Positions 25,557-55,543 of a stretch of DNA of 56,197 bases are shown one piece after another. The number at the start of each line of letters is the position of its first letter. Within the stretch, counting starts at the first letter, position 1. The stretch lies in assembly GCA_030167865.1 (NCBI GenBank), contig JALAGF010005687.1:1-56197 (forward strand), in the 5' to 3' direction. This DNA is from Craspedostauros australis (taxonomy: Eukaryota). The notes under the pieces are model-generated. The model saw nothing but the letters and a program-made list of their open reading frames with translations, did no database searches and was not told where the DNA came from. The translations under genes were made by a program, and so were the position numbers.

Positions 25557-26894
25557 GGTGGCTGTTGGTATTGTCGGTGCTGTCTGGTGTTGCCACTTCG
25601 GCCCTTGCTGTGGACAGAGTTGATCCTCAGCAAGTGATGGTATGGTGTGCAGGCCACTACCCTCCAGAGGGAGTCTTCGACTACAGTTGGAGCGTGGAGT
25701 GCTTGGACGGAGTGAGCTGCTTCTCTCCAATTATGCAGCCGGAGTAGCTCTTGCAGATCGTCGTCGTAAGATGGCAGGTGACGCAATCGATGAGTTATTA
25801 TAACAATAATACCCCGGTATCGTACAATCGCTTTCACACAAGATGGGATGAATGATGAATGATTGCTGGATGATGAAGATGGAAGAGGTGGTTGTTTGTG
25901 AATGATGATTCAAGTCTCCGAGGGTTCATCTGCTCCACTTCTCTCCATTTGTGGCATGCAGCAACACGCAGCTCATCGTCATGTCACATTCTGCGCTGCT
26001 ACTCCCGCCACTTCAGTTGAGTGCAACAGCATAGTCGGACTCGCATGGCACACATGCAAGCATAGTCGCAACGACCGGACTCCAATGTCATGTGGTGCTG
26101 GCAGATGCAACAATGGTGTGCGCGTATCCTTCTCTCTGACCTCTTTGTGGTCTTGGTTGGGGACACATTCTTCCCTCCGAACTCATCGTTGTCCACGCTC
26201 CGTGTTTGTACCGATGTTTCGTATCCGACCTTCTTGAATTGTATGTTTTGGTGGGAAGCTAAGTTTTTCAAATGAGCTGATGTGTCGCATACGACAACAC
26301 ACGAATCATGGGGATTGCCACTTTGTCACATTTTGGGAGCGTCGCATACAAGTGCCTTCAGTGTTTGCGCTTGACAAAGCGGTCCCTCATCCTTTGGAGC
26401 GGCGGAGTGTTTGGCAATTCAATCATCTATCATACCTATGGTACGTGTCGGAATGCTTTCTCGCGGTATCTGTCTTTGATGTTGGAGACAATATGATGCA
26501 ATACGATACGATACTCGTACGATAGTTCACAATGGCAGTGGCCGCAATTTTTGTGCCATGGAGGACGGAATGGCACAATGTGAGTTGGAAGTGCGGAGTG
26601 CAATATGGAGATGTCACAAGGACCACAAGGAGATGTCACATGCTTGGTGAATGGCATGCCGTGAGCAACACCTCGAAGGTGCATGTAATGCAATGTACGG
26701 ATTCACATGCACAGAGGTGATGATGAAGAGATGGAAGTCATGATGACAATCTGATGACGATGATGGTGACGAGGATGTCCCCATCTCCTCTCACAAAACC
26801 AAAGCCAAAACCAAAGCCAAAACCAAAGCAAAATCCAAAGCACAACACAGCACAGCACAACATATCGAAAGGAACGACTGCGACGAATCTCACC

Positions 26895-27515
26895 ATGCCA
26901 TCCACCACCGCCAACAAACTCTCCATCACGTGCGTCATGCTCATCGGCATCATGACCGCGTCCTCCGCGTTGGCTCATACTCGGGGGCAGCTCAAGAGGC
27001 GCAACACTGAGATGCTGAAGAAGCACAGACGCACCGCCAAGGAAGGCAAGGGAACCAGCAAGAGCGGCAGCGGCAAAGGCAAGGGCACCAACATCATCGT
27101 CGATCCCGTCGTCGATCCCATTGTTGATCCCATCGTCGAGCCGATCGTGAACGACGACGCCGATGGCAGCAACGACGGCAGCCTGCTGGATCACATCTGC
27201 CAGCTCTACGTCGCGTTCCAAACGCACGGCGAGCAATCGGTAGGATACAACAGCACCGCCATCGAGTGGTTCCAGTTCTGCGACGTCGCCACGCAACACC
27301 ACTTCCTGTGCCCCAACTCCTACGAGGAGTCCAAGGTCTGCGCCTCCAACGTGACGTCCATGGAGACCGCCGTGCATGACGGGTACTGCGAGCCGCTGTT
27401 CCTGGACATGGAGGATGGCGCTGCGACGCACAACCGCACCAGCTGTATCGAGTCCTGCGTCAGCTTTGTCGCCACCACCAAGGGAGACTGCTGCAACCTC
27501 GTTTGTTACAATTGA
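26895..27515 (+). CDS. Secreted protein with a Lys/Gly/Ser-rich segment, VDP repeats and a 10-Cys C-terminal domain
   Basis: Signal peptide (...IMTASSALA), KEGKGTSKSGSGKGKG, IVDPVVDPIVDPIVEP, 10 Cys in the last ~105 aa, three N-glycosylation sequons (NST, NVT, NRT), strong coding codon bias. Confidence 0.8.
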   Translation: MPSTTANKLSITCVMLIGIMTASSALAHTRGQLKRRNTEMLKKHRRTAKEGKGTSKSGSGKGKGTNIIVDPVVDPIVDPIVEPIVNDDADGSNDGSLLDHICQLYVAFQTHGEQSVGYNSTAIEWFQFCDVATQHHFLCPNSYEESKVCASNVTSMETAVHDGYCEPLFLDMEDGAATHNRTSCIESCVSFVATTKGDCCNLVCYN

Positions 27516-28233
27516 CGAAGATGATGGTTGGATCGGATTGAATTGGATTGCACTGACGGACCCCGATGGATACCGACGGATGCAAAGACAGAGACAGAGA
27601 CGCGGTCATTCATGGCGCCGCAGCACACATGAAGATGGTTTTCGCCACGGTGTGCGAGTGTCGAGTGCGAACGATAATCCAATAAGACAGTAATGAGTGT
27701 AGTAGCGAGAAAACGAAGACTACACGGCGACGTACAGATAATGTAGCAACAGAGTCGCAACCGAGTACACAGGCAACGCTCATCTCATTCTCCACCCTTT
27801 GTCTGTGTTGTGTGCTTGTGGACCCCGCGCTCTGATCCTGTTTGTTCCGTTGTGGTCATTCCGGTATCTTTCGTCTGTTTTCGACTCCTTCGAATGCTTT
27901 TCTGCAACAAGAACGAAAACGAAAACGAAAACAACACGATCAGCAACACCAACAACACCAAGAACCACAGCGAAAAAGCCTCCACCATGGCGCAAACTGC
28001 CGCCGAGAGCGCCCTTGATCGCAACGGATCTTGCTCCCTTGGTACGAACCATGATACGAGGCGGACGCACTTCGCATCTCCCCCAATTCTCGCACAGCAG
28101 ATTTGTCTTCTCGTGACTAACCAATTGACCAACCAATTGACTGCAGCACAGTGACACAAAGGCAAGACAATCATTACGAGTGTCGATCCAGAGAGTAAGA
28201 CCAGAGGAGCACGAGCAAGACCAATCTCCCAAA

Positions 28234-30075
28234 ATGTCAGGGAAATCGCCGCCGCCTCCCCCTCCTCCTCCTCCACCGCCGCCGCCGCCTCCAGCACATC
28301 CTTTGTCTCAACCGCAGGCACCGTATGGTTCCACTCCCACCAACCCCGCCGTTGCACCGGTCGGTGTCGCCATCGGCGCTCCTCCGGCCATCCCTGTCGA
28401 GCCGCCGCAATCGGCAGTGCCCACACTCACCGTGACGAGGCAGCCCAAGCTGACGGAGAACTTCGGCAACATCTACGTGGGAGAGACGTTCCGGGTGCTG
28501 CTGGAGATCAAGAATACATCCAACGTGCTCTCCATCCTCAAGCTCACGGTCAACGCGCAGATGCAGACCCCCACGCAGAGATGGAATCTATCCACGACAG
28601 TCGATGAGTGAGTTCAACACTATTGTATTGTGCATTGTTCATTGTGCATTGTGCATTGGTACTCTAGTTCAATTCGTCTTGTCTTGTCCTGTCTTGTTCT
28701 GCATGTTTCTTGGAGGGTCATTTGACGACGACGACGACGACAATCGCTGCTGCTGCTACCTTCACCATCATGCTAACCGAAATCGTCTGTTCTGCTCTAC
28801 TTTACTCTATCATTGCTCGATGTTCAATGTTCATTGTTCAATATTGGGACTGTCATGGTACTACCAATACGCGGCATGGTGGATGATGGATGATGGAAGC
28901 GCAGAGCAAATGCCAATGGTGGAGTGGAGGTGACGCCGGGCTCCAAGACGGACACGCTCGTTAGCCACACTTTGTCAGAAATGGGACAGCACATCCTCCG
29001 AGTGGAGATGGGTTACGGTGAACAACCTCGCAAGACCCTGCGGAAGTTCTATCGCTTTCCGGTCCTCATGCCGTTCAATATGCGCGCGATCCCTTGGCGG
29101 ACGAGCGATAGCAGCTGCGTGCTTGCGGTCACCTTGGAGAACAACTTGGAGGAGGCAATGGAGATGCAGCTTACATCTGTAGGATTCGAAGCTGCTGCGT
29201 CGGAAACCATGTCAGTGGAGCGCGTGCAGAACAAAAAGCAGGTCGGCGGCGGTTTTAATCCCGGTGCTGGTACAGGTACTGGAACTGGTATAGTTGCGGC
29301 GTCCACCAAAGCAGCCACATCCAATGACTTTGCCTGCGATGAAACATTTACCGTCGGTCGTCAAATCAGACATCTGTTTCAGCTGCAAGCCACAGCACCA
29401 GCTGAGACTTCTGCCGCACCAGCATCGCAGCATGGAATAGCCGGTGGCGATACTCTGGGCCATGTAGTTGTGACGTGGACGAAAAGCAAAGGCGAAATGG
29501 GACGTTTCGTTTCGCAACCGATTGTCTGCCCGCCCCTGGCGCCGATGGTGGACCTCAATGATCCGAGCTCGACCATGACCGGTGGCAACCAGCCATTCGT
29601 ATCATATCTGAAGGGAGGCAGCGCACTGTCCGTCGATGTGGCCGCATCGGCGGCCGCTGCTGCCGTCGCCAACGTCACAGGACAGCAGAACAAAGCTGTC
29701 ACGTCACGGCAGCACCACCGACTAGAGCAGCTGCTGCCGATCACCGTCGAGGCCATCGACCCGCCCACCACCATCCCGGTCTCCACACCGCAGGAGTTCA
29801 AGTTCCTCATCGTCAATCATTCCACCCAACCGCGCGACGTGCAGCTCCAGTTCCGTCTGGACCACATGAACGGGCTGGCCATCTGCGGATCGAGCTTTCA
29901 GAATCTCGACACCATCGGCCCCAACGGCGGCAGTATCGTGGTCACCAGCAGGTTCCTCGCCCTCAACGAAGGTGTGCTCCGCTTGCAGGGCTGCTGCGTC
30001 GTCGACATGGGCACCGGCATGCACATGGCGCAGCCGCCCTTGCTCAATGTACTGGCCGAGAAGCACTCGCAATGA
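28234..30075 (+). CDS. TRAPPC13: Trafficking protein particle complex subunit 13 (DUF974) (exons 28234-28607, 28905-30075)
   Basis: LTENFGNIYVGETF, VNAQMQTPTQR, VSHTLSEMGQHILRV, LRKFYRFPV and LGHVVVTW..KGEMGR. The GT..AG intron 28608-28904 restores the frame. Confidence 0.88.
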
Positions 30076-31645
30076 TGATGATCGATGATAGCGGTGGGAG
30101 TACTCCACATATGCACGTACCAGTACTCGCAGCTGGCAGCTCATACCTCGTAGCTAGTGGATGTTGTAGGTTGTAGGTACCATACTAAAATGCGGTACAA
30201 TGGAGGAGAGCATTGAGCCATGCGTGATTGCGCCGCGGGAGAGAAAAAGTAGCACGTTGCGACATCGGCAAGCAACTTGATTCCTTCCCTTCTTTCAGTT
30301 GACGCGATGCGCGAAATGGGGAATGCGGACTGACGAACTCATATCTCTATGTTCGCTTGTAGACTGTTTCGTTTCAAATCATATCCACGAATGGAAATTC
30401 TGCGTGGCGCTTCAGCGATGGAGGAACTCACTAAATTTGAAAGTGAGAGCAGGCACAACAAATGCCGTAAACAGCGTGCGAGCCTGCCTGATGGGACATG
30501 ACACGAATACAATCATCTGCGACGTTGGTTGGAACTTGGGAAATATTTTTAGTATTAAGAACTGTATACGATGAATAAAATATGATAAGATTAGGCCATG
30601 AATACAACAAAAATTTAACGGATAGGTCGTGACGGAGGCGTGGTGTTATTTTCCGTTTCTTTTTTGCCGAGAAGCGTGGCGAAGTCAGGAGTTGGTTGAA
30701 TGAGGAAGGAAATGAGGAGAAGTGGCCGCCCGCTCCTTCCGTTGTGGAAGTTCGTGTGGGAAGAGTCATGGTGGAGTTGTTGGCGTTGGTGGTGTCGGTG
30801 GCGTCGATGGTGTGGATGGTCCGGATGGTGCGAATCATGTTCCCATACTCCAACAAAAACATCATCTGCACAGACGGACGCAAATAACAAACCACAAACC
30901 GATTGGTAAGCTAGTCGCACGTGATGGAAGTCACGAGAGGGAACACGATGCGACGTGATGAGATGCGTTGCGATGCCATCATCACCTGCGCTCATGGGAG
31001 TACATCGGTGTTGGTCGAAGGCGAAAGTCGAGACAGGCAGCAGCTGGATATCATGCCCAGCAGATCAACGTCTTCGCGCGACCATGACGGCTGGCAATGA
31101 ACCTGATCACTGTCCACCCGAAAGGAAAAATATGATTTCTCGTCACAGGGCAATGACTTTGGCACCGTGCCAGGTGTTGGAACAAGCTGGGGCGCCATTG
31201 TGAGAGCTGCGAAGGTGGACGATGGACGATCGATAAAGGCGTACTCTGTTACGCACAGATTTGGTCGCAATCGTTCGGTTCAGCCTGGCGGTATCGACCA
31301 ACAATATGATGGTACCAGCGGTAGCTCCATCCGGCAAGCACACGAGCCATCCACCAAGTGCATTGCCCCCTGCGCTTGGATGTTCAGATCTCGACCGTGG
31401 AAGCCACCGAGCAGGGTTGCGCCATCCCAAATCACCACCGACCTTGCCACAGCGACTCGCCATTGTGGTGTACATTGTATGACTTGGCAGTGCCGGGTTG
31501 CGATTGCATGCGATGCGCAAAACAATATTCGAAGCTCACGATTGCTCACAAACCCCACTTTCGTTTGCGCTTGCGTTCGCGGAACTACTCCTCTAACTTA
31601 TCCTCTTCTTCCAAATCATCTCGAATCGCATCACACAGGTGCAAG

Positions 31646-33574
31646 ATGAGTACTGAGCAACGAAAGCCGATGTCGAGCCTCCGCCGATGGGGACCAGCCA
31701 TGGTCGCCATCTTCGGAGTGATCGCCCTTAATGCCGCATTCTTCGGACCAACCGGATCTAAGATGCCAGACCTGTCCCAGGAGAGCCGCCTGCACCGCGC
31801 ACTTGCCGAGAAGCGCACCCAGGAGGTGGTCGCCATGGCGCCATCCGCAGATGATGCTGCCCTGAGACACGGATTTGGAAGCCGCAACCTCTCCGAAGAG
31901 GAAGGTGGTGTCATGGAGTACACTCGCCGCCGCCACCGTTACCTCGGAGAATACGTGCACAAGGATGTCTCTGATGACTTCTCCAGCCTCGGAAAGTGGA
32001 CCATCTCCCTGATCTACTTCGCCTACTGGGTCTTCCTCATGTTCCCCAACTGGTTCCTTCCAATTGGCCGCCCGGGTATCGCCCTTGGAGGTGGTCTCAC
32101 CATGGTTGTCTGGAGATTCGTCCTGCAGCAGATGGGACAGGGACCATTCTTCGATGCCGAGCGCGTGATCATCATGGAACCGCTTTTCTTGCTTTTCGGT
32201 CTCATGCTTACCACCATCTACCTCGAGAAGATGGAGCGTGGAGGTCTCTTCGACAAGCTCCGCGATTCCCTTGACGACCCAGTCAACTGGAAGCGATCCT
32301 CCAAGATCATGATCATGTCCACCATCGGGTCCGCCGCCGTCATGAACGATTCCGTCGTCCTCATCTTCTCCGGAGTCGTCGTCGACCTCTGCGTTCGTCA
32401 CAAGGTCGCAAACTCGCTCCCATACCTTCTGTCCCTCGCCACCACCGCCAACATCGGATCTGCGTTGACCCTGACCGGAAACCCACAGAACATCCTCATC
32501 GTCTCCCTCGCCTACGACGACATCGGTTGGTTGGAGTTCGCCATGAACATGTTCCTCCCAGTCCTTGCCGCCACCCTCATCAACTTCGCCATCATGTTCA
32601 TGTACTATGGAGCCGAGCTCTTCCCAGGTTCATCCGGAATTGGCGAGAACGTTCGCATCATCGCCATGGGTCACCGCACGCCAGAGATGCTCGCACAGGA
32701 GCACGCCTACTACGCCCGCCAGGCCGCCGCCAACGAAGGCAAGCCAGAGGAGGAGGAATCCACCTCGTGGACACTCTGGTCCAGACTCCAGGTCCTCGTC
32801 TGCATCGTTTTCCTCGGCTGCTTCGCTTACGGACTTGATGTCTGCGTCGTCTCCATCACTGCTGGAGCCATCCTCATGGTCATGGCCTCGTACAAGCGTC
32901 AGCACTACGATCCACGCCCAGAGAACACCCAGTACGATGCCGAGGGCAACCCGCTCCCAGCCAAGAAGACCTACGACATGGATGGAAACGAGATCGAGCC
33001 AGAAGACGAGGAGCTCGTCACCGAATCCGAGACCACCCTCACCGAGGTCGACTACGGACTCCTCATGCTTTTCATCGGACAGTTCTTGCTCATCGGATCC
33101 TTCAACGACACCGGTGTTCCACAGGCATTCTTCAACTTCACCATGGGTGGATGCAAGGAGTCCATGACCGAGGGATACTGCGTCTACTGGTTCGTCCTCA
33201 TCATCACCATCCTCTCCAACATCGCCTCCAACGTCCCTGTCTGCCAGATGCTCGCCGCCACCTTCCCATACGCCACTCCATACGACTGGCTGCAGGTGTC
33301 CTTCTCCGCCACCATCGCTGGAAACCTGACCATGCTCGGATCGGCTGCCAACATGATCGTCGCCTTCCAGGCCGCCAAGATCGGAGACCGTACCTTCACA
33401 TCGGAGCGCCATGCTCCATTCGGTATCCCATCCACCATCGCGTGTCTGTACGCCGGAACCTTCCTGTTGACCACCTTCAACAACATCCCGAAGTGCTCGG
33501 AAAAGCTCGAGAACTGCGAGGGCCAGGACAACTACGGCATGACAGCCGAGGAGATCGTTGCCGCTCAAGAGTAA
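31646..33574 (+). CDS. LSI2: Lsi2-like silicon (metalloid) efflux transporter, ArsB/CitMHS (IT) superfamily, with N-terminal anchor and RXL-containing extension
   Basis: Motifs match plant Lsi2: LPIGRPGIALGG, LFLLFGLM, YLLSLATTANIGSALTLTGNPQNILI, VDYGLLMLFIGQF, ILSNIASNVP, ATIAGNLTMLGSAANMIV. About 11-12 hydrophobic segments; intronless with strong codon bias. Confidence 0.88.
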   Translation: MSTEQRKPMSSLRRWGPAMVAIFGVIALNAAFFGPTGSKMPDLSQESRLHRALAEKRTQEVVAMAPSADDAALRHGFGSRNLSEEEGGVMEYTRRRHRYLGEYVHKDVSDDFSSLGKWTISLIYFAYWVFLMFPNWFLPIGRPGIALGGGLTMVVWRFVLQQMGQGPFFDAERVIIMEPLFLLFGLMLTTIYLEKMERGGLFDKLRDSLDDPVNWKRSSKIMIMSTIGSAAVMNDSVVLIFSGVVVDLCVRHKVANSLPYLLSLATTANIGSALTLTGNPQNILIVSLAYDDIGWLEFAMNMFLPVLAATLINFAIMFMYYGAELFPGSSGIGENVRIIAMGHRTPEMLAQEHAYYARQAAANEGKPEEEESTSWTLWSRLQVLVCIVFLGCFAYGLDVCVVSITAGAILMVMASYKRQHYDPRPENTQYDAEGNPLPAKKTYDMDGNEIEPEDEELVTESETTLTEVDYGLLMLFIGQFLLIGSFNDTGVPQAFFNFTMGGCKESMTEGYCVYWFVLIITILSNIASNVPVCQMLAATFPYATPYDWLQVSFSATIAGNLTMLGSAANMIVAFQAAKIGDRTFTSERHAPFGIPSTIACLYAGTFLLTTFNNIPKCSEKLENCEGQDNYGMTAEEIVAAQE

Positions 33575-36198
33575 ATCAAGTGCGAATCAATTCAGCGCAA
33601 CGCGACGCAAATCAATGCATCGAACGTGATGCCACCAACTATGCTACGATCAGTAGTACGTGTCGTACTCGTCCAGTTCGGAACATCCGTACGCACGCTT
33701 GTATGAACAACGCCAGACATCAGACATCCGGCACAGCGCAATTTTAGAGATCAGCAAACGGCGTGGCCATGGTGGGATTGGTGTGCGCGGATTATTCTCA
33801 TGAAGAGGCCAGAAGCAGGACATGACGGACCTGCTCCTCGGTCAGCGAAGCAAACGCAACCGTTACACCACGCACACGATCGAAGCTACTCCTCCAAACG
33901 TCCTTGCGTGAATCGTCCACGCATCGATGGAGTGCCGTGCCCCGTTCGCATCCTTGCGCTCTTGTCAGTGACTGTAGAGTAACAGTAAAAAACATAACAA
34001 CAACAACAACAACACCACATCAAACAAACAGAAACAAACAGGCAACTGGAAGCACTCTAACTCTCCAAGAACACTCGTCGGCATCTCGTGGAATTGTAAA
34101 ACTATTCTTATTCAGCAACCTTTTATTACATTACATGTCGGACACCCTCGATGAAGAACACAACAAGTTTGCGGTTGGAACGACGAACTACGTACGGACG
34201 TGTGTTGTGTCAAGTATTCTCGACCATCTACTCGCGAGCATGATAGCGTGCGGCCACGATCCAAGGAGGTCGTCCCGACCGACAATCTCGATCAACTCAC
34301 CACCATCCAGGATGGAGACGCTACAACTATCAACCGTCTCATCACGCTGTGCCAAAATCCGTACAACCTCCAGAACAAGCATGGTGGCACCCCGTCGCAC
34401 CACGTCTGGCATCGTGATGCTGAAGATGATGTTTCTGGAAAGCGAAAATGTGAAGACCGATGTGAGCATCAAGAACATGGAGGGGCCGTCGGATGTCGCC
34501 GTGGCGAATGGTCACGACGGTTGAGGATGCCCCAACACGATCGCCACCTGCTCGTATCGTGGCATCTGTGCCATCGTGAAACTAGCTTCGTTTAGTTAGG
34601 CTTTGCAACAGAATTGGAATGGAATCGTGTCGCCCACCCAAACAATCGCAATGACTTTTCAAAGCTGAAATCTGAATTGTTTTTATTCATGACTGAATGT
34701 TTCATTAAAGTGGAACGGCCCCTTGCTGTCCGAATGAGACATATGAACGACACGTTTGGCGCATGTGAGTTCGTTTCTGCAGTAAGAATAGTGGATACCA
34801 ACGAACTCCCTCCACCTGGGGAGCGCGCATGACAGTTTGCCAGTTTGTCTTGAATGGACAGAGACGTAGGGAATGCGTAGGACTCGTACTATCGCGACAT
34901 GACGCTCTTGTTGGCGCCTTCGCTGCGCCTGACACGACAAGAGCGTGCCGAATTCATCACAATGACGATGACGACCGTCGCGATGGTGGTCATGATTGGT
35001 CGATTCCGTTTGTTCGTTCGTTCTTGGTGGTGGTTGGATCGGAACCACCATCATCCGTTGCACCAATGCGAGGGTGGTACCAATACTGTGTGGCAGAGGC
35101 GAAGAGCCAACCACCTGTGTTGGATACTCAACACTTCCAGTCTCCCATGCCTATCTCGAGATTCTTTTCACCAAATCTCGACAACACCACAACAACCAAA
35201 GCGCCAAACCTCAAAGCATCTGCTCTAAATCTGAATTCATCGGCATTGGAATCGAAGCAGTGTTCACATACACACGCACCAGCACACAGAAACACACAGA
35301 CACAGAGAAAGTCCAGAACAACTGCACCAATCCACTTCACTGCGCTCCGCCATCGATCGTATTGTGCTTCACCACGACACAAACTCGATCATCACTTCAC
35401 CGCGAACGTTGTTGTTGGCGTTGTTGTCATTGCCAGAGAGAGTATCATTGCCGTTCCCACACTGCACGAAGGAGTGTCCAAACAGCAACCACGAAAGAAC
35501 ATAAAATCCCCACCAGAAAGCAGCACACAGGAACGACGTTGCGAAGAAAGAAGATCTTGGGTCGTGATTTGGTGTTGAGGTTTGCGCTGGCGCACGAACA
35601 GAAGAGACATCGTGAAGGCTGTTTTCGTGTCAGTAGCACACACAAGGTGTTCGTACACCGTCACACGACAAAGACAAAAGAGTAGGCACGAACAGGCAAG
35701 AGCACAAAACGACCGAGCGACGCTTCTTCTGAGCAGTGAGACTCGCAACCGGAACACTTGAGAGTTTGGAGGCGAAGAATCTGGAGGAACAAAAGTTGGC
35801 CGACGGCAACGAGAATCCGATCGTTGGTGAAGACGGCACAAGAACGGGCAAGACACGCACGCACGCAGACAGAGAGACACAGACAGCAACACGAAACCGA
35901 TCCTTCGCGGCGAAGCACATTGCATACTGCGTACGGAACATCACAGCACGAACGCTGGAATACAATCGAAACCAAGACTCCTCAACACAACGCGACACAA
36001 CACAACACAAGAGTAACACAAGAGCAACGCAGACAGAGGAACAACCAGAGCGCCCTCATCATAAAATTGCACAACTTGCCACCCACAACGTGACACAACG
36101 CGACATAGCGCAACACATCAGCACTCGGGACAAAAAGCGAAGCCACGCCATCAACACCACTCACAGCGACAACAACAGCGCCACTCAGTGACAACAAC

Positions 36199-38255
36199 AT
36201 GACAATGAACACCATGAAGAGAAGGTCGAGACTGCGCCGCTTGCTTGGCTTCGCAGACGGCAGCGGCAAGGCCTCGCAGGCAGCGCTGAGCCGCCTGGAT
36301 TCCGATGATGTGCCAGAGGCAGAGGTCTCCTCCACCTCCAGCGGCGTCGCCAGCCACACCAGCAGCAACGGCGACCTCGGCTCCTTCTTCGAGTCCAGCA
36401 CTCCGGCGGAGGACCCGTACCAGGACGTCCGCGAGCGCATGGAGGAGCTGGCAGCCAAGGACAGGGCCATGTTCGCCACGCACGACGAGCCATCGCAACT
36501 CCATGACCTCAGCTTGCCTGCCTTCGCCGCTTACACCACCTACCTCGGCTACGCGGTCCTCATCGTCTGCGGACACATCCGCGACTTCTTCTCGCGCTTC
36601 CTCGGCGGCCGCTACTCCTCCAGGAGCAGCACCTTCGCCAGCGACAACCTCAGCCTCTACGCTCCCCTCCTCAAGAGCTGGGAGAACTTCTACACCAGGC
36701 GCCTCTACCACCGCATTCAGGACTGCTTCAACCGCCCCATCGCGTCCAACCCAGGCGCCACCATCCAGGTGCTCGAGAGAGTCAGCGACGACGGCAACAA
36801 GACCATGAAGCTGCTCGGCACCCTCTCCGATCTCGACAACGACAGCCAGCGCGAGCTCTACTCCAACGGGGACCACTTCGTCGCCGTCTCAGACGACCGC
36901 GTGGCCCGCCAATGCATCAACCTCGGCAGCTACAACTACCTCGGCTTTGCCGATGACTGGCAGGTCACCTGCGCACGCGACGTCATCGCCAGTCTCGACG
37001 ATCTGCCCGTCTCCATGTCCGCGTCTCTCAACGAGTTCGGAACCACCACCCGCCACCGCGAACTGGAGCGCCTCGTGGCCAGATTCATGGGCAAGGAGGA
37101 CGCCCTCGTCCTCAACATGGGATTCAACACCAACGCCACCACCATCCCAGCATTGGTGGGACGCGGAGACCTCCTCATCTCAGACGAGCTCAACCACACC
37201 AGCATCGTCAACGGCGCAAGAGGCAGCGGCGCCGCCATCCGCATCTTCAGGCACAACGACATCGACAACCTAGAGAACGTCCTGCGCGAAGCCATCATCA
37301 TGGGCCGCCCACGAACACGCCGTCCGTGGAACAAGATCATGGTCGTCGTCGAGGGCATCTACAGCATGGAGGGCGAGTACTGCGACCTGGCCAACGTGGT
37401 CCGCGTCTGCAAGAAGTACGGCGCCTACGTCTACCTCGACGAGGCACATTCCGTCGGCGCCATGGGCCCAACGGGACGCGGCTGCGCCGAGTACTGCGGT
37501 GTCGACACCGCCGATATCGACATCATGATGGGAACGTTCACCAAGTCATTCGGTGGCATGGGTGGCTACATCGCCGCCTCCAAGGACACCATCGCATTCC
37601 TTCGCCAACGTTGTGCCGGAAGCGCCAACCATAACTCGCTCTCGCCTGTCGTCTGCCAGCAGGTCATTTCCAGCTTCAAGGTGAGTTCCGAGTCCTTGCG
37701 AGCGCCTTCGCAATCATCACATGCGCATTTGCTGAACGCATTCCTGGCTGTATCACCGAATGTATTCGATCTGTTGCTTGCTTGCTTTCTGTTGCACGCC
37801 CATCGCGACTTGATACTCAACGTATTTCAATTTCCGCCTCGTCCGTTTCCTTCACCATGCCTTGACGCCAATTTGCTGAACTTCCGCAGGTGATCATGGG
37901 AGAAGATGGCACAAACATCGGCAAGCAGAAGATCCAAGCGCTGCGGGACAACTCCAATTACTTCCGCATGCGTCTGCAGGCCATGGGACTGCACGTGCTG
38001 GGACATTACGACAGCCCCATCATGCCTGTCATGCTTTACAATCCCACCAAGATCGCTGCCTTCTCGCGAGAATGCCTCCGCAGAGGTTTGGCCGTCGTCG
38101 TCGTAGGCTTCCCGGCCGTGCCCATCCTCACGTCGCGTGCACGATTCTGCATCTCCGCAGGTCACACACGCGAGCAGCTCGATCGCGCGTTGGATGAGAT
38201 CGACGACATCGCAGGCACGCTGAAATTGAGATACAAGACATCCATCTTCGGTTAG
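36199..38255 (+). CDS. LCB2: Serine palmitoyltransferase long-chain base subunit 2 (exons 36199-37680, 37890-38255)
   Basis: ENFYTRRLYHRIQDCFNRPI, CINLGSYNYLGFA, VEGIYSMEG, DEAHS, PLP-lysine motif GTFTKSFG, VVVVGFPAVPILTSRARFCISA. GTGAG..GCAG intron at 37681-37889. Confidence 0.96.
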
Positions 38256-51475: not shown

Positions 51476-53136
51476 ATGGATCCCATTCAGCTCATCAAGT
51501 CGGTGTACTCCACCGGACTCCTCATCTTCTCGATCACCATCGTCTGTGGACTCATCTTCAATGAGCAGACTAAGGTCTCGTCCGAGGTCCACCCAGTGGT
51601 CGCCGTCGTCATCATGATCACGGCCCTCGTCTGGCTCAATATGGTGGAGGGAGGACAGGGTTCCCTTGTCGGTCTCCCACCAGTCGACCGCGACCTCTAC
51701 GTCGAATCCCACCCAACCGCCCACCAGTGCACCTCCCTCGCCCACAAGGGTGACAACCTCGATCGCTACCTCATGGGACGTCAGTTCATGGTCCTCCTCN
51801 NNNNNNNNNNNNNNNNNNNNNNNNNNNNNNNNNNNNNNNNNNNNNNNNNNNNNNNNNNNNNNNNNNNNNNNNNNNNNNNNNNNNNNNNNNNNNNNNNNNN
51901 NNNNNNNNNNNNNNNNNNNNNNNNNNNNNNNNNNNNNNNNNNNNNNNNNNNNNNNNNNNNNNNNNNTCCCTCTGCATGCTTGACTACATCAACAACTTCT
52001 TCGCCGTCTTCACCCTCTATGTCGCCCTCGCCATCGAGTTCTCCGGACTTTTGCACTCGTGCTACCTCGTCCAGATGTTCTTCGTCTGGGCCTCCGGCAA
52101 GGAAATCGAGTCCAAGGAACCACCACGTGACAGTGCCCAGAACCTCTTCTACTGGGGCCGTATCCTCATCTCCCTCGCCATCTTGTGCTACGCCATGGCC
52201 GTCACCCTCGTCGCCCTCTTCGATGGAAAGACCACCATGTGGGCCGGAGTGCCAAACGGAGTCGCTGTCATCCTCTTCTTCCTCTTCATGTCTATCGTCG
52301 GTATGCTCGAGGGTATGCAGATCGCCTTCTTTGCCGTCGCCAAGCTTCCAAAGGAGGAGCGTGGAGACCACCCAATGGCCCGCAAGACCTGCGAGCTCCT
52401 CTTCCGCGGTGACGGACGCAACCTTCCAGGATTCATGATCGGGCGTCAGATCTGTGTCACCATGTGCTTCTTCATCATCGCCCGTGTCACCACTCTCGAT
52501 GTCGAGGTCGGAACTGGCGAGAACATCTTCGGAGTCTCTGACAGCACCCAGGAATTCTTNNNNNNNNNNNNNNNNNNNNNNNNNNNNNNNNNNNNNNNNN
52601 NNNNNNNNNNNNNNNNNNNNNNNNNNNNNNNNNNNNNNNNNNNNNNNNNNTCCAACCCAATCGTCTACATCTTCCTCCAGTTCTGTCTGTTGTTGGAAGC
52701 CACCGGTATCTGCTCCGGAGCCTGGGTCCTTGCCTCCATTCACAAGGCCGTCTCTGGCTTCCAGCTCGATGAGGTGTACATCGGCACCCCAGAGGAGCGC
52801 GCTGCTGGCATGAAGCCAGACCACCAGAGCAACCGCAACATGCACCTTGGAACCAATGTGCTTGTCGGCGAGGCCGGTTCAACCGCCGTCCCACGCGAGT
52901 ACCTCGAGCTCCAGAAGGCTTTGGCGTCACAGAATGAGTCTTACTCCGTCCGCCGTGAGCGCATCCTGTCGAACATCAAGGGACTCCGCGAGGAGATCAA
53001 CTCGTGCAGCAACGAGGATGATGCCGCCGTCTTCGAGTCTGCTCTTCGCATGGAGACTGCAGCCATGAACAAGTTGAACCAGGAGGAGAACGACAGTGCC
53101 GCCGAGAGTGACGAGGAGATGGGTGTGCAGAAGTGA
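51476..53136 (+). CDS. SIT: Diatom silicon transporter (SIT), interrupted by two N-gaps (51800-51966, 52560-52650)
   Basis: Signature motifs MVEGGQGSLVGL, DNLDRYLMGRQFMV, CMLD, GMLEGMQIAFFAVAKL, NLPGFMIGRQ, LLLEATGICSGAW and FQLDEVYIGTPEER, plus a C-terminal coiled coil typical of pennate SITs. Confidence 0.96.
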
Positions 53137-53563: not shown

Positions 53564-55543
53564 TCACCAAGGAAGAGTGGACAAGTAGTCGACAACATCA
53601 GTGTGGTCCTGCTTTTTCGCAATATCCAGCGCAGTCAAGCCACTGTTAGTCTTGATGCTGATGTCTGTGTTGCACGATTCCACCAAGTATATGACCACCT
53701 CCAATTGGCCATTCCAACTTGCCTTCCAAAGTGGTGTGTTGCCATACTTGTTTTGAATGTTGACTTCTGCGTTGCAGACTTCCGCCAAATACTGCACGAC
53801 CTCCAACCTACCATTGAAGCACGCTTGATGCAGTGCAGTGTTTCCAAACCTGTTGGTTTCAATGTTGACATCCACCTTGCCTTGTTCAACCAACAGCTTC
53901 ACAACGTCGAGATGACCACCGATACATGCATGATGGAGGATGGTGTCGCCACCCTGGTCTTTCACGTTCAAATCAACATTGGGTGCTGCGACCAGATACT
54001 TGACAACATCGGGGTGGTTGTGGTAACATGCCTTGTGGAGTGGAGTCTCGTGCTTGTTATCCTCAGCGTTGATATTGGCTTTGCGGGATTCAACCAGCCA
54101 CTTCACAACATCCAGATGCCCACGCGCGGTTGCGCGATGGAGCACGGTGTCGTCACCTTTGTGCCGCGAGTTAGGATCTATGCTTGGTGTTCCGATGAGA
54201 TACTTGACAATGTCGAAGTGGCTGTGGCCATATGCCTTGTAGAGTGGAGTCTCATGGTTGTAGTTCTCAGCATTGATGTTGGCTCCGCCTTGTTCAACCA
54301 GACACTTCACAATATCCAGAGATCCACGCGCGATTGCAAGATGGAGTGCAGTGAAGCCACCCATGTTGTCGGCGCGGGCGTTGATGATCACTTTGCCTGA
54401 GTCCACCAAAGGCTTCACCACATCCAGACGACCTTTCGCACTTGCGCAGTGAAGGGCAGTGTGGCCATCGTTGTTCTTGGCGTTGCCATCCACCTTCAGA
54501 TCGTCTGAGTTCAACAGGTACTCCATCATACCCAGATGAACTCCAGCACTTGCGCAGTGAAGCAAAGTGTCGCCATTCTCGTCTTTCGCATTGACGTCCA
54601 CCTGGCCTGACTCCGCCAACCATCTCACAACATCCAGATGACCTTGGGAATATGCAGACTCAAGAGCCGTGCCGCGAACCTCATTCTCAACATGAACATC
54701 TGCCTTGCACGACTTCACCAGGTACTCTGCAACATCCAAATGATCATTTCTGTAAGCAGCATGAAGCGCGGTATCGCCGTAATCGTTTTGGATGTCGATG
54801 GCCACAGCACGAGCCTCCGTCACATACTTCAAGATATCAAGATGACCTTTCAGACACGCATTGTGGATCGCAGTATTGCCGAAATCATCTTGCACATTGA
54901 CGTCCACTCCATGTGATCCAATGAGGTACTCGACAACATCCAAGTGCCCACGAAGACACGCGGCATGGAGGGCATTCTCACCCTTCTCATCTTGCACGCG
55001 AGCGCTTGCAGAATGTGACTCGATCAGAGTCTTCACGATGGCCACATGCCCCTCGGTGCATGCGTCGTGGAGTGCCGCCTTGCCGGAGTTATCCTGGAGG
55101 TTGACATCTGCAGCATGTGACCCGGCCAGGTATTCCACGACGTCAACATTGCCCTGTGCGCATGCATAGTGTAGCGCAGTCTCTCCATCCATGGATTGGG
55201 CATTGATGTCCGCTCCGCATGACTCCATCAACTGTTTGATCGTTTCAAGCTGACCGTTGGAGCATGCGAGGTGGAGTGAAGTCTTGTCGCGGTCATCCTT
55301 GATCGTGTCGATGGAGGTTTGTGGGAATGCCGTCTTCCATGCGGTGAGGATGTCCACATCTCCTCGTTCTGCGGCGCGCAGGAGATCCTGGTCGGTGACG
55401 GTCGGGCTGGATGCATCATCAGGGGTAAACTTGAGCGGAAAGAGAGACGGCGAGGCTGTGGATTGTGATGTCCGAACTTGGTGGTTGTGGTTGCGCAATG
55501 GTGAGACGAACAGCGCAAGGAGTGGAGGAAGGATGAAGACCAT
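53564..55543 (-). CDS. Ankyrin-repeat protein (~18 repeats) with a short hydrophobic N-terminus
   Basis: Repeating T(A/P)LH.AC..GHLDVVKYL...ADVN..D..G units across ~600 aa; intronless. Confidence 0.93.
   Translation of the reverse strand: MVFILPPLLALFVSPLRNHNHQVRTSQSTASPSLFPLKFTPDDASSPTVTDQDLLRAAERGDVDILTAWKTAFPQTSIDTIKDDRDKTSLHLACSNGQLETIKQLMESCGADINAQSMDGETALHYACAQGNVDVVEYLAGSHAADVNLQDNSGKAALHDACTEGHVAIVKTLIESHSASARVQDEKGENALHAACLRGHLDVVEYLIGSHGVDVNVQDDFGNTAIHNACLKGHLDILKYVTEARAVAIDIQNDYGDTALHAAYRNDHLDVAEYLVKSCKADVHVENEVRGTALESAYSQGHLDVVRWLAESGQVDVNAKDENGDTLLHCASAGVHLGMMEYLLNSDDLKVDGNAKNNDGHTALHCASAKGRLDVVKPLVDSGKVIINARADNMGGFTALHLAIARGSLDIVKCLVEQGGANINAENYNHETPLYKAYGHSHFDIVKYLIGTPSIDPNSRHKGDDTVLHRATARGHLDVVKWLVESRKANINAEDNKHETPLHKACYHNHPDVVKYLVAAPNVDLNVKDQGGDTILHHACIGGHLDVVKLLVEQGKVDVNIETNRFGNTALHQACFNGRLEVVQYLAEVCNAEVNIQNKYGNTPLWKASWNGQLEVVIYLVESCNTDISIKTNSGLTALDIAKKQDHTDVVDYLSTLPW

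What the first reader, a model, noticed from the sequence alone, without database searches (positions are those of the whole stretch)
31646..31995. Lsi2-like silicon exporter with an N-terminal anchor and three RXL pro-peptide motifs: candidate SDV silicic-acid loader
Seen: before the Lsi2 core there is an extra hydrophobic segment (AMVAIFGVIALNAAFF) and an ~80-aa loop with HRALAE (31796), SRNLSEEE (31883) and RRRHRYLGE (31937). Established: RXL motifs mark processing sites in silaffins, silacidins, silicanin-1 and SAPs, plant Lsi2 is an H+-driven Si exporter, and the SDV lumen is acidic. Inference: this transporter is processed and routed like silicalemma proteins, and could exchange luminal H+ for cytosolic silicic acid, the unresolved step between SIT uptake and deposition. 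Diatom Lsi2-like genes are known to exist; this pro-domain role is my hypothesis.
Basis: partly seen in the sequence, partly recalled or inferred. Interest (0 to 1): 0.8.

Follow-up and report, generated by a model that had tools for sequence, protein, structure and literature searches.

The report
Diatom silicon exporter with cleavable pro-piece
This is the diatom counterpart of the plant silicon exporter Lsi2, carrying a conserved front piece that is probably cut off inside the secretory pathway, and it is the best current candidate for the pump that loads silicic acid into the compartment where diatoms build their glass shells, a role suggested before but never tested.

Summary
A 642-aa ORF (31646-33574) encodes the single-copy diatom Lsi2-like transporter (ArsB fold, Z 39.5) with a signal anchor, an 80-aa loop and three RXL motifs. 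RXL3 is kept in 197 of 197 orthologue clusters, RXL2 in 196, RXL1 in 171 of 193. The loop is luminal, because the core superposes on ArsB from its periplasmic N-terminus. Divergent paralogues keep an RXL at the same spot, or fuse a signal peptide there directly, so cleavage after RXL3 is likely (about 0.75). The SDV-loader idea was published in 2016. All six ArsB metalloid-binding residues are kept. Cleavage, location and substrate are untested. New variant of a known kind; interest 0.55.

The parts
31646..33574 (+). Lsi2-like transporter gene, one uninterrupted ORF, 642 aa, 71.2 kDa precursor; single match in the own genome
   Evidence: (PF03600, E 4e-37)
31646..31696 (+). Basic cytosolic N-tail (res 1-17) ending in a conserved R-x-W-G-P
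   Evidence: R13, W15, G16, P17 at 97-98% of 121 rows; two or more K/R before the anchor in 238 of 239
31697..31744 (+). Signal anchor (res 18-33), N-in/C-out, with one conserved face (A21, V25, N29)
   Evidence: (helix 11-33)
31745..31984 (+). Luminal loop (res 34-113): helix 45-63, then flexible stretches holding RXL2 and RXL3
   Evidence: AF2 pLDDT <50 at 76-82 and 87-101; sidedness from ArsB superposition
31796..31804 (+). RXL1 (R51-A-L53), inside the predicted helix, least conserved, shifts position
   Evidence: 171 of 193
31883..31891 (+). RXL2 (R80-N-L82); overlaps an N-glycosylation sequon that is not conserved
   Evidence: 196 of 197
31892..31936 (+). Conserved acidic-then-basic peptide between RXL2 and RXL3; would be released if both are cut
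   Evidence: spacing 18 residues in 224 of 232
31937..31945 (+). RXL3 (R98-Y-L100), the likely maturation site; R98 also ends an R-x-x-R motif
   Evidence: 197 of 197; R-x-x-R in 240 of 244; kept in diverged relatives
31946..31981 (+). Predicted mature N-terminus (G101 onward, Y-V-H-x-D-x-S motif), shared with signal-peptide paralogues
31985..33475 (+). IT-superfamily elevator core (res 114-610), ArsB-like
   Evidence: 10tp, Z 39.5, rmsd 2.8, 405 aligned; E 6.6e-29
32345..32350 (+). N234-D235 = ArsB N111-D112 (metalloid ligand, candidate H+ site)
32480..32482 (+). N279 = ArsB N158
32906..33025 (+). Conserved acidic cytosolic loop (res 421-460) with Y-D-x-D-G-N and an E-x-x-x-L-[VI] dileucine-like motif; candidate sorting signal
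   Evidence: 0.89 identity over 416-465; 244 of 244, but the whole loop is conserved
33230..33232 (+). N529 = ArsB N337
33341..33349 (+). S566 and A568 = ArsB S380 and A382
33476..33571 (+). Luminal C-tail with C-x6-C
   Evidence: 242 of 244 orthologues and 9 of 9 paralogues checked

Best explanation
The protein is made as a 71-kDa precursor. The N-terminal signal anchor puts the loop and the start of the core into the ER lumen (inferred from structure; strong). A secretory-pathway protease cuts after RXL2 and RXL3, leaving a 60-kDa mature transporter that starts at G101 (inferred from conservation and paralogues; about 0.75). The RXL sites are maturation sites of a general diatom kind, not an SDV address; sorting more likely uses cytosolic motifs (speculative). 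The mature protein is an ArsB-like elevator transporter that binds neutral Si(OH)4 from the cytosol through N234, D235, N279, N529 and S566 and releases it on the luminal side in exchange for H+ (inferred from ArsB and plant Lsi2; not shown). It does so mainly at the V-ATPase-acidified silica deposition vesicle during valve formation (inferred from published data on orthologues).
For: Topology: model 117-615 aligns with ArsB 1-428, whose two termini are periplasmic (PMC13381914 section). Sites are flexible in the model. RXL3 197/197 and RXL2 196/197. Of 15 diverged relatives, 10 keep RXL within 0-6 residues of the Y-x-H-x-D motif although most flanks are unrelated, 2 fuse a signal-peptide-like leader directly to it with no RXL, 3 begin there. 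These relatives and the orthologues form one clade, 100/100. Six ArsB metalloid contacts are kept in 56 of 56 orthologue rows. Tp21292, identified as the Lsi2 homologue in PMC3478156, has 6 peptides in the SDV fraction, lies in the sin1 expression cluster and is one of 39 VSP1.0 proteins (PMC9894196 supplements). The Seminavis homologue peaks with V-ATPase and silicanin genes (10.1101/2020.11.23.393678 passage). Single copy.
Against: No cleavage, localisation or transport data exist for any diatom member in what I read. RXL3 sits in a block as conserved as the core, so it could be structural. ArsB D148, D370 and K374 are replaced by N269, T556 and N560, leaving one acidic H+ candidate. The H+/Si antiport model is not directly shown even for plant Lsi2, and tomato Lsi2 gave no efflux (PMC8550040 section). 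The SDV fraction held 1,132 proteins with contaminants, VSP1.0 also lists a plasma-membrane SIT, and Tp21292 was not among the four GFP-checked proteins. Tp21292 co-varies with SIT2, which also fits the plasma membrane. I did not retrieve the Tp21292 sequence; its pro-piece is inferred from its mass (71.0 kDa) and from close relatives. Lsi2-like genes occur in non-siliceous protists.
Confidence: 0.45

Rival explanations
1. Processed Si(OH)4 exporter at the plasma membrane or vacuole that vents or buffers cytosolic silicic acid; its presence in the SDV fraction reflects co-purifying or recycled membrane.
For: Co-expression with SIT2, also under Si starvation; a plasma-membrane SIT is in the same 39-protein list; RXL is shared with transporters of no known SDV link; plant Lsi2 is a plasma-membrane protein.
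Against: Expression peaks with sin1 at valve formation and with V-ATPase and silicanin genes in Seminavis. Seawater at pH 8 gives little inward H+ gradient at the plasma membrane (own knowledge).
Confidence: 0.25
2. SDV or secretory membrane protein that moves something other than Si: a Na+/H+ or anion exchanger for pH and ion balance (the reading in PMC9894196), or an arsenite/borate exporter.
For: Public names such as NhaD/arsenite permease-like; two of ArsB's acidic residues are absent and N269/N560 stand there; unnamed prokaryote-like relatives have the same pocket residues, so the pocket does not specify Si; rice Lsi2 also moves arsenite.
Against: NhaD model 33.5 bits against cut-off 80, DASS 35.9 against 198.6; best fold match is ArsB, not a Na+ symporter (Z 39.5 against 31 or less); pocket pattern equals that of plant-like Lsi2 rows; Si-linked expression in two diatoms.
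Confidence: 0.2
3. The RXL motifs are not cut; the N-terminal region stays as an extra helix plus a luminal lid, conserved for packing or partner binding (this is independent of where the protein acts).
For: Anchor face and several loop residues are nearly invariant, more than a disposable leader needs; RXL1 lies inside a confident helix; PMC5647440 says RXL processing remains to be proven (passage).
Against: Middle residue free while R and L are fixed; RXL persists where flanks are unrelated and disappears where a signal-peptide-like leader abuts the mature start; low pLDDT at RXL2 and RXL3.
Confidence: 0.22

Closest known systems
Diatom Lsi2-like proteins: Thalassiosira pseudonana Thaps3_21292 (B8BUG0), Seminavis robusta 'Silicon efflux transporter LSI2'
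   Same: 80% identity over 97% of the length to the S. robusta protein, same N-terminal architecture in it and in named Cyclotella, Skeletonema, Conticribra, Detonula and Thalassiosira proteins' clusters; single copy.
   Different: Nothing essential: this is the orthologue. The anchor, luminal loop and RXL sites were not described in the passages read.
Plant Lsi2 (rice OsLsi2)
   Same: PF03600 core; same residues at all ArsB pocket positions in 5 plant-like rows (the label plant-like is my reading of sequence and tree, not a database name).
   Different: Plant-like rows start directly at the first core helix with no anchor or RXL loop; about 30% identity; plasma-membrane location.
ArsB of Leptospirillum ferriphilum (PDB 10tp)
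   Same: Best structural match (Z 39.5, rmsd 2.8, 405 residues); N111, D112, N158, N337, S380, A382 all kept.
   Different: 15% identity; D148, D370, K374 not kept; far under NCBIfam ArsB cut-offs; no N-terminal extension.
RXL-bearing silica proteins: silicanin-1, SAP1-3, silaffins, silacidins
   Same: Luminal RXL ending a pro-region ahead of the mature protein (PMC5525289, PMC5647440, PMC5501833 passages).
   Different: Those have cleavable signal peptides and at most one membrane helix; this is a polytopic transporter with a signal anchor and no Lys/Ser- or Asn/Gln-rich domain.
OCA2/P protein (architecture recalled, not from a call)
   Same: Extra N-terminal membrane helix plus luminal segment ahead of an IT core; works in an acidic lysosome-related organelle.
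   Different: Separate clade from Lsi2-like proteins; the loop here is helical or disordered with no strands.

Membership tests
Lsi2-like (IT superfamily, ArsB/NhaD permease group) | CitMHS/ArsB-type domain and inverted-repeat elevator fold | tested here: met
   PF03600 128.6 bits against cut-off 31.9; AF2 pTM 0.88; ArsB Z 39.5
Lsi2-like (IT superfamily, ArsB/NhaD permease group) | Hairpin-loop pocket residues shared with plant Lsi2 and ArsB (N-D, N, N, S) | tested here: met
   56 of 56 orthologue rows, 5 of 5 plant-like rows
Lsi2-like (IT superfamily, ArsB/NhaD permease group) | Orthology to the named diatom Lsi2-like proteins | tested here: met
   80% identity to S. robusta LSI2; one clade 100/100; single copy
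Lsi2-like (IT superfamily, ArsB/NhaD permease group) | Same architecture in T. pseudonana Tp21292 itself | tested here: inconclusive
   Sequence not retrieved; mass 71.0 kDa fits the full architecture, and close relatives have it
Lsi2-like (IT superfamily, ArsB/NhaD permease group) | pH-dependent Si(OH)4/Ge efflux | not testable with these tools
   Needs oocyte or liposome assay; shown only for plant proteins
ArsB proper | NCBIfam ArsB score above cut-off | tested here: not met
   18-20 bits against 415-760
ArsB proper | D148, D370, K374 near the pocket | tested here: not met
   N269, T556, N560
NhaD Na+/H+ antiporter | NCBIfam NhaD score above cut-off | tested here: not met
   33.5 bits against 80
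RXL pro-peptide silicalemma proteins (Sin1, SAP, silaffin type) | Conserved RXL on the luminal side ahead of the mature part | tested here: met
RXL pro-peptide silicalemma proteins (Sin1, SAP, silaffin type) | Cleavable N-terminal signal peptide | tested here: not met
   Basic tail of 17-40 aa plus conserved anchor; Tp21292 scored SP-negative in PMC9894196 Table S1; judged by eye, no SignalP
RXL pro-peptide silicalemma proteins (Sin1, SAP, silaffin type) | RXL restricted to silica-associated proteins | tested here: not met
   RXL after leaders of ZIP, NCKX, NHE and S8 proteins in the same genome; their locations are unknown
RXL pro-peptide silicalemma proteins (Sin1, SAP, silaffin type) | Cleavage at RXL in vivo | not testable with these tools
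   Comparative support only
RXL pro-peptide silicalemma proteins (Sin1, SAP, silaffin type) | Location in the SDV membrane | not testable with these tools
   Published fractionation of Tp21292 only; no imaging

The most novel reading that the evidence does not exclude
The diatom Lsi2-like protein is the missing SDV silicic-acid importer, made as a zymogen: the conserved anchor and luminal helix hold the elevator inactive until a subtilase cuts at the RXL sites on the way to the forming SDV, so Si pumping starts only there. The cut also frees a conserved acidic-basic peptide into the lumen, and signal-peptide paralogues that have lost the pocket residues act as regulatory partners.
Probability: 0.15. 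Interest if true: 0.85.

Novelty: new variant of a known kind. Interest (0 to 1): 0.55.

Why it matters
How silicon enters the SDV is stated as unknown in PMC9894196, yet the same paper's SDV list holds the Lsi2-like protein under the name Na+/H+ antiporter. Joining that proteome entry, the 2012 Lsi2 assignment and the 2026 ArsB structure gives one single-copy gene with named pocket residues to knock out, tag and assay. The pro-piece matters in practice: N-terminal tags would be cut off, and heterologous assays may need the mature form behind a signal peptide, a design that natural paralogues already show. It also extends RXL processing to polytopic transporters and warns against using RXL as a marker of silica proteins.

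Tried and rejected
Random genome sample as an RXL control: 105 ORFs from 404,889 bases; 0.61 RXL per 80 aa after 18 hydrophobic N-termini (the query among them) against 0.46 in 87 others; underpowered, no enrichment shown. Site-1 protease as the convertase: PF23090 found nothing in the own genome or controls, so inconclusive; the likeness of RXL to S1P sites is recalled. Single-sequence PDB search: 0 hits. N-terminal 113 aa alone: two helices, pTM 0.41, best Z 4.0 among 48,161 chains, no usable Atlas hit; this also shows that the high pLDDT of those helices in the full model is no evidence of packing on the core. The anchor does not superpose on DASS TM1 (aligned ranges start at residue 110 or later); the likeness is topological only. 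A complex prediction of pro-piece with core was not available, so binding is untested. Expression: no RNA holder listed; one run of uncertain kind covered only 32862-33983. Upstream coding exon: no convincing match of 196 homologue N-termini. P0029 has the same computed mass as B8BUG0 but has no UniProt or NCBI source and lacks the N-terminal pattern of the named Thalassiosirales; treated as coincidence. SIT linkage: 92 SIT matches in this genome make one SIT on this contig unremarkable. Search with paralogue P0215 found only the window gene in the own genome. A first C-terminal cysteine count used a wrong pattern; redone. A first RXL2 count (232 of 232) was loose; the strict count is 243 of 244. 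(bacterial promoter scan) is not informative for a diatom. Earlier findings: none returned.

Full report
What is there. The finding covers the first 117 codons of one ORF, 31646-33574 (+), 642 aa. It matches PF03600 and, weakly and under all cut-offs, DASS, NhaD and ArsB models. The 120 best database hits are 76-83% identical; the named ones are diatom proteins, including Seminavis robusta 'Silicon efflux transporter LSI2'. It is the only match in the own genome. The organism is a diatom, probably a raphid pennate: the protein groups with Nitzschia inconspicua and Fistulifera solaris proteins at 94/92.

The motifs are real. Anchor, 80-aa loop and three RXL are at the stated places. Alone, three RXL has P=0.017 by shuffling. 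Across 197 full-length orthologue cluster representatives from three searches, RXL3 is in 197, RXL2 in 196, RXL1 in 171 of 193 with an anchor. The middle residue is free. Control tripeptides such as K-x-L or R-x-I are at 0.1-0.7 per 80 aa against 3.8 for R-x-L. Against this, RXL3 lies in a block as conserved as the core.

The loop is luminal. AlphaFold2 on a 144-row alignment gave pLDDT 89, pTM 0.88, with helices at 11-33 and 45-63 and pLDDT under 50 at 76-82 and 87-101. Best match is ArsB (PDB 10tp): Z 39.5, rmsd 2.8, model 117-615 to chain 1-428. ArsB has both termini in the periplasm (PMC13381914, section 6). So the residues before 114 and after 610 are outside the cytosol, and the basic tail before the anchor is inside. 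A C-x6-C tail in 242 of 244 sequences fits an oxidising side. PMC8550040 (section 8) gives a cytosolic N-terminus for rice Lsi2 from a sequence predictor; the structural match points the other way.

Cleavage is likely. A search of 1.84 billion representatives gave diverged relatives that form one clade with the orthologues (100/100, bootstrap not fully settled; several long branches). One has close relatives named Attheya; the rest are unnamed. Of 15 such rows, 10 have an RXL 0-6 residues before the conserved Y-x-H-x-D motif, mostly with unrelated flanks; three of these are near-copies and two start just before the motif and may be cut short. Two (P0215, P0252) have a signal-peptide-like leader fused straight onto the motif and no RXL there. 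Three begin at the motif and say nothing. Two routes thus give the same mature start. Leaders were judged by eye. Mature mass would be 60.1 kDa against 71.2. The protease is unknown: R98 also ends an R-x-x-R motif in 240 of 244, and the genome has 42 S8 matches.

RXL is not an SDV address. PMC5647440 (passage) says RXL sites had been found only in biosilica proteins. In this genome (by eye): the one Na/Ca exchanger of 8 loci shown with a visible anchor has anchor-RRL-core, the same layout as here; 2 of 6 ZIP loci have a clear signal peptide and both carry RXL after it; 1 of 11 NHE/KEA loci has anchor plus RKL while another signal-peptide one has none; 7 of 11 S8 loci have RXL in the pro-region. 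It is not universal: 2 of 6 anchored sulfatases and 1 of 2 PhoD with visible leaders have one. A random sample was too small to decide. I did not test conservation or location of these controls. PMC9650480 (passages) names pentalysine clusters, lysine-rich regions and another motif as targeting signals and RXL as a cleavage site. A cytosolic loop with a dileucine-like motif is a better sorting candidate (the motif's meaning is recalled), and AP-1, AP-2 and clathrin are in the SDV list.

Transport. ArsB binds neutral As(OH)3 through N111, D112, N158, N337, S380 and A382, with D112 and D148 as H+ sites (PMC13381914 passages). The profile alignment maps these to N234, D235, N279, N529, S566, A568, kept in 56 of 56 orthologue rows, 5 of 5 plant-like rows and mostly in sponge-like and prokaryote-like rows (these group labels are my reading, not database names). 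D148, D370 and K374 are N269, T556 and N560 here and in the plant-like rows. The pocket suits a neutral hydroxylated metalloid but does not single out Si. The 10 paralogue rows have mostly lost it (N279 and N529 in 0 of 10).

Where it acts. PMC5100055 (abstract and passages) already proposes that Lsi2-like proteins move Si from cytosol into the acidic SDV, or act at the plasma membrane; 10.64898/2026.01.19.700231 (abstract and section 7) says the same for sponges and that location is unreported. PMC3478156 (passages) identifies Thaps3_21292 as the single-copy Lsi2 homologue, co-expressed with SIT2. In PMC9894196 (section 5 whole, passages, Table S1, Dataset S3, rows of S1 and S2) Tp21292 has 6 peptides in the SDV fraction, is in the sin1 cluster and is one of 39 VSP1.0 proteins; the text reads it as a Na+/H+ antiporter and calls the SDV Si transporter unknown, while Dataset S2 labels it 'Putative plant-like silicon transporter'. 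The fraction had 1,132 proteins and Tp21292 was not imaged. 10.1101/2020.11.23.393678 (passages) shows the Seminavis gene peaking with V-ATPase and silicanin genes. I could not retrieve the Tp21292 sequence.

What is new. Nine paper searches showed no paper describing the RXL pro-piece of diatom Lsi2, the signal-peptide paralogues, or linking Tp21292 in the SDV proteome to Si loading. Other papers seen as passages only: PMC5525289, PMC5501833, PMC10328945, 10.1101/2021.09.18.460806 (28), PMC13652820. The library lacks most subscription papers; bioRxiv supplements, file 1 of PMC5100055 and file 13 of PMC3478156 were not seen.

Verdict. Known gene family and a published hypothesis, with a real, apparently undescribed pro-piece. 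Shown here: motifs, conservation, fold, sidedness, pocket residues, non-exclusivity of RXL. Inferred: cleavage (about 0.75), SDV residence (about 0.65), Si as substrate (about 0.7); the whole SDV-loader model about 0.45. New variant of a known kind, interest 0.55.

Noticed in passing
window 51476-53136 (+): SIT silicon-influx transporter gene (PF03842), interrupted by runs of N, 18 kb from the Lsi2-like gene. The genome has 92 SIT matches on several dozen contigs, a very large expansion beside a single Lsi2-like gene; the linkage is probably chance.
   Followed up: partly
proteins P0127, P0130, P0132, P0159, P0165, P0172, P0201, P0215, P0252, P0281: A fast-evolving paralogue clade (100/99), at least partly from diatoms (Attheya), keeps the luminal N- and C-terminal motifs but has lost the substrate-pocket residues; possibly transport-dead or repurposed. 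None found in the own genome with one query.
   Followed up: partly
L101, L102, L110, L112 (own genome, S8 proteases): Secreted subtilases carry R-x-L shortly before the catalytic domain. If these are self-cleavage sites, such enzymes are candidates for the unknown RXL convertase.
   Followed up: no
L065 (G000:C1133), L097, L128, L136: Other transporters (NCKX-like, NHE-like, two ZIPs) with leader plus RXL ahead of the core.
   Followed up: partly
window 32906-33025 (+): Highly conserved acidic cytosolic loop with two Y-D-x-x-G-N repeats (235 and 228 of 244) and a dileucine-like motif; possible cation, adaptor or dAnk binding site.
   Followed up: partly
window 31590-31639 (+): Branch-point-like, pyrimidine-rich and CAG sequence just before the start codon; may be the end of a 5' intron. 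No upstream coding exon found.
   Followed up: partly
window 28141-30075 (+), 36199-38255 (+), 53564-55543 (-), 26754-27515 (+): Neighbours: TRAPPC13 (trafficking), a class I/II aminotransferase-fold gene that looks like serine palmitoyltransferase (name recalled), an ankyrin-repeat protein next to the SIT, and an unnamed Lys- and Cys-rich protein with a signal-peptide-like stretch.
   Followed up: no
proteins P0123, P0170: Relatives at 63-71% identity with a wholly different N-terminal region and no clear anchor, yet RXL directly before the mature motif; organism unknown.
   Followed up: partly
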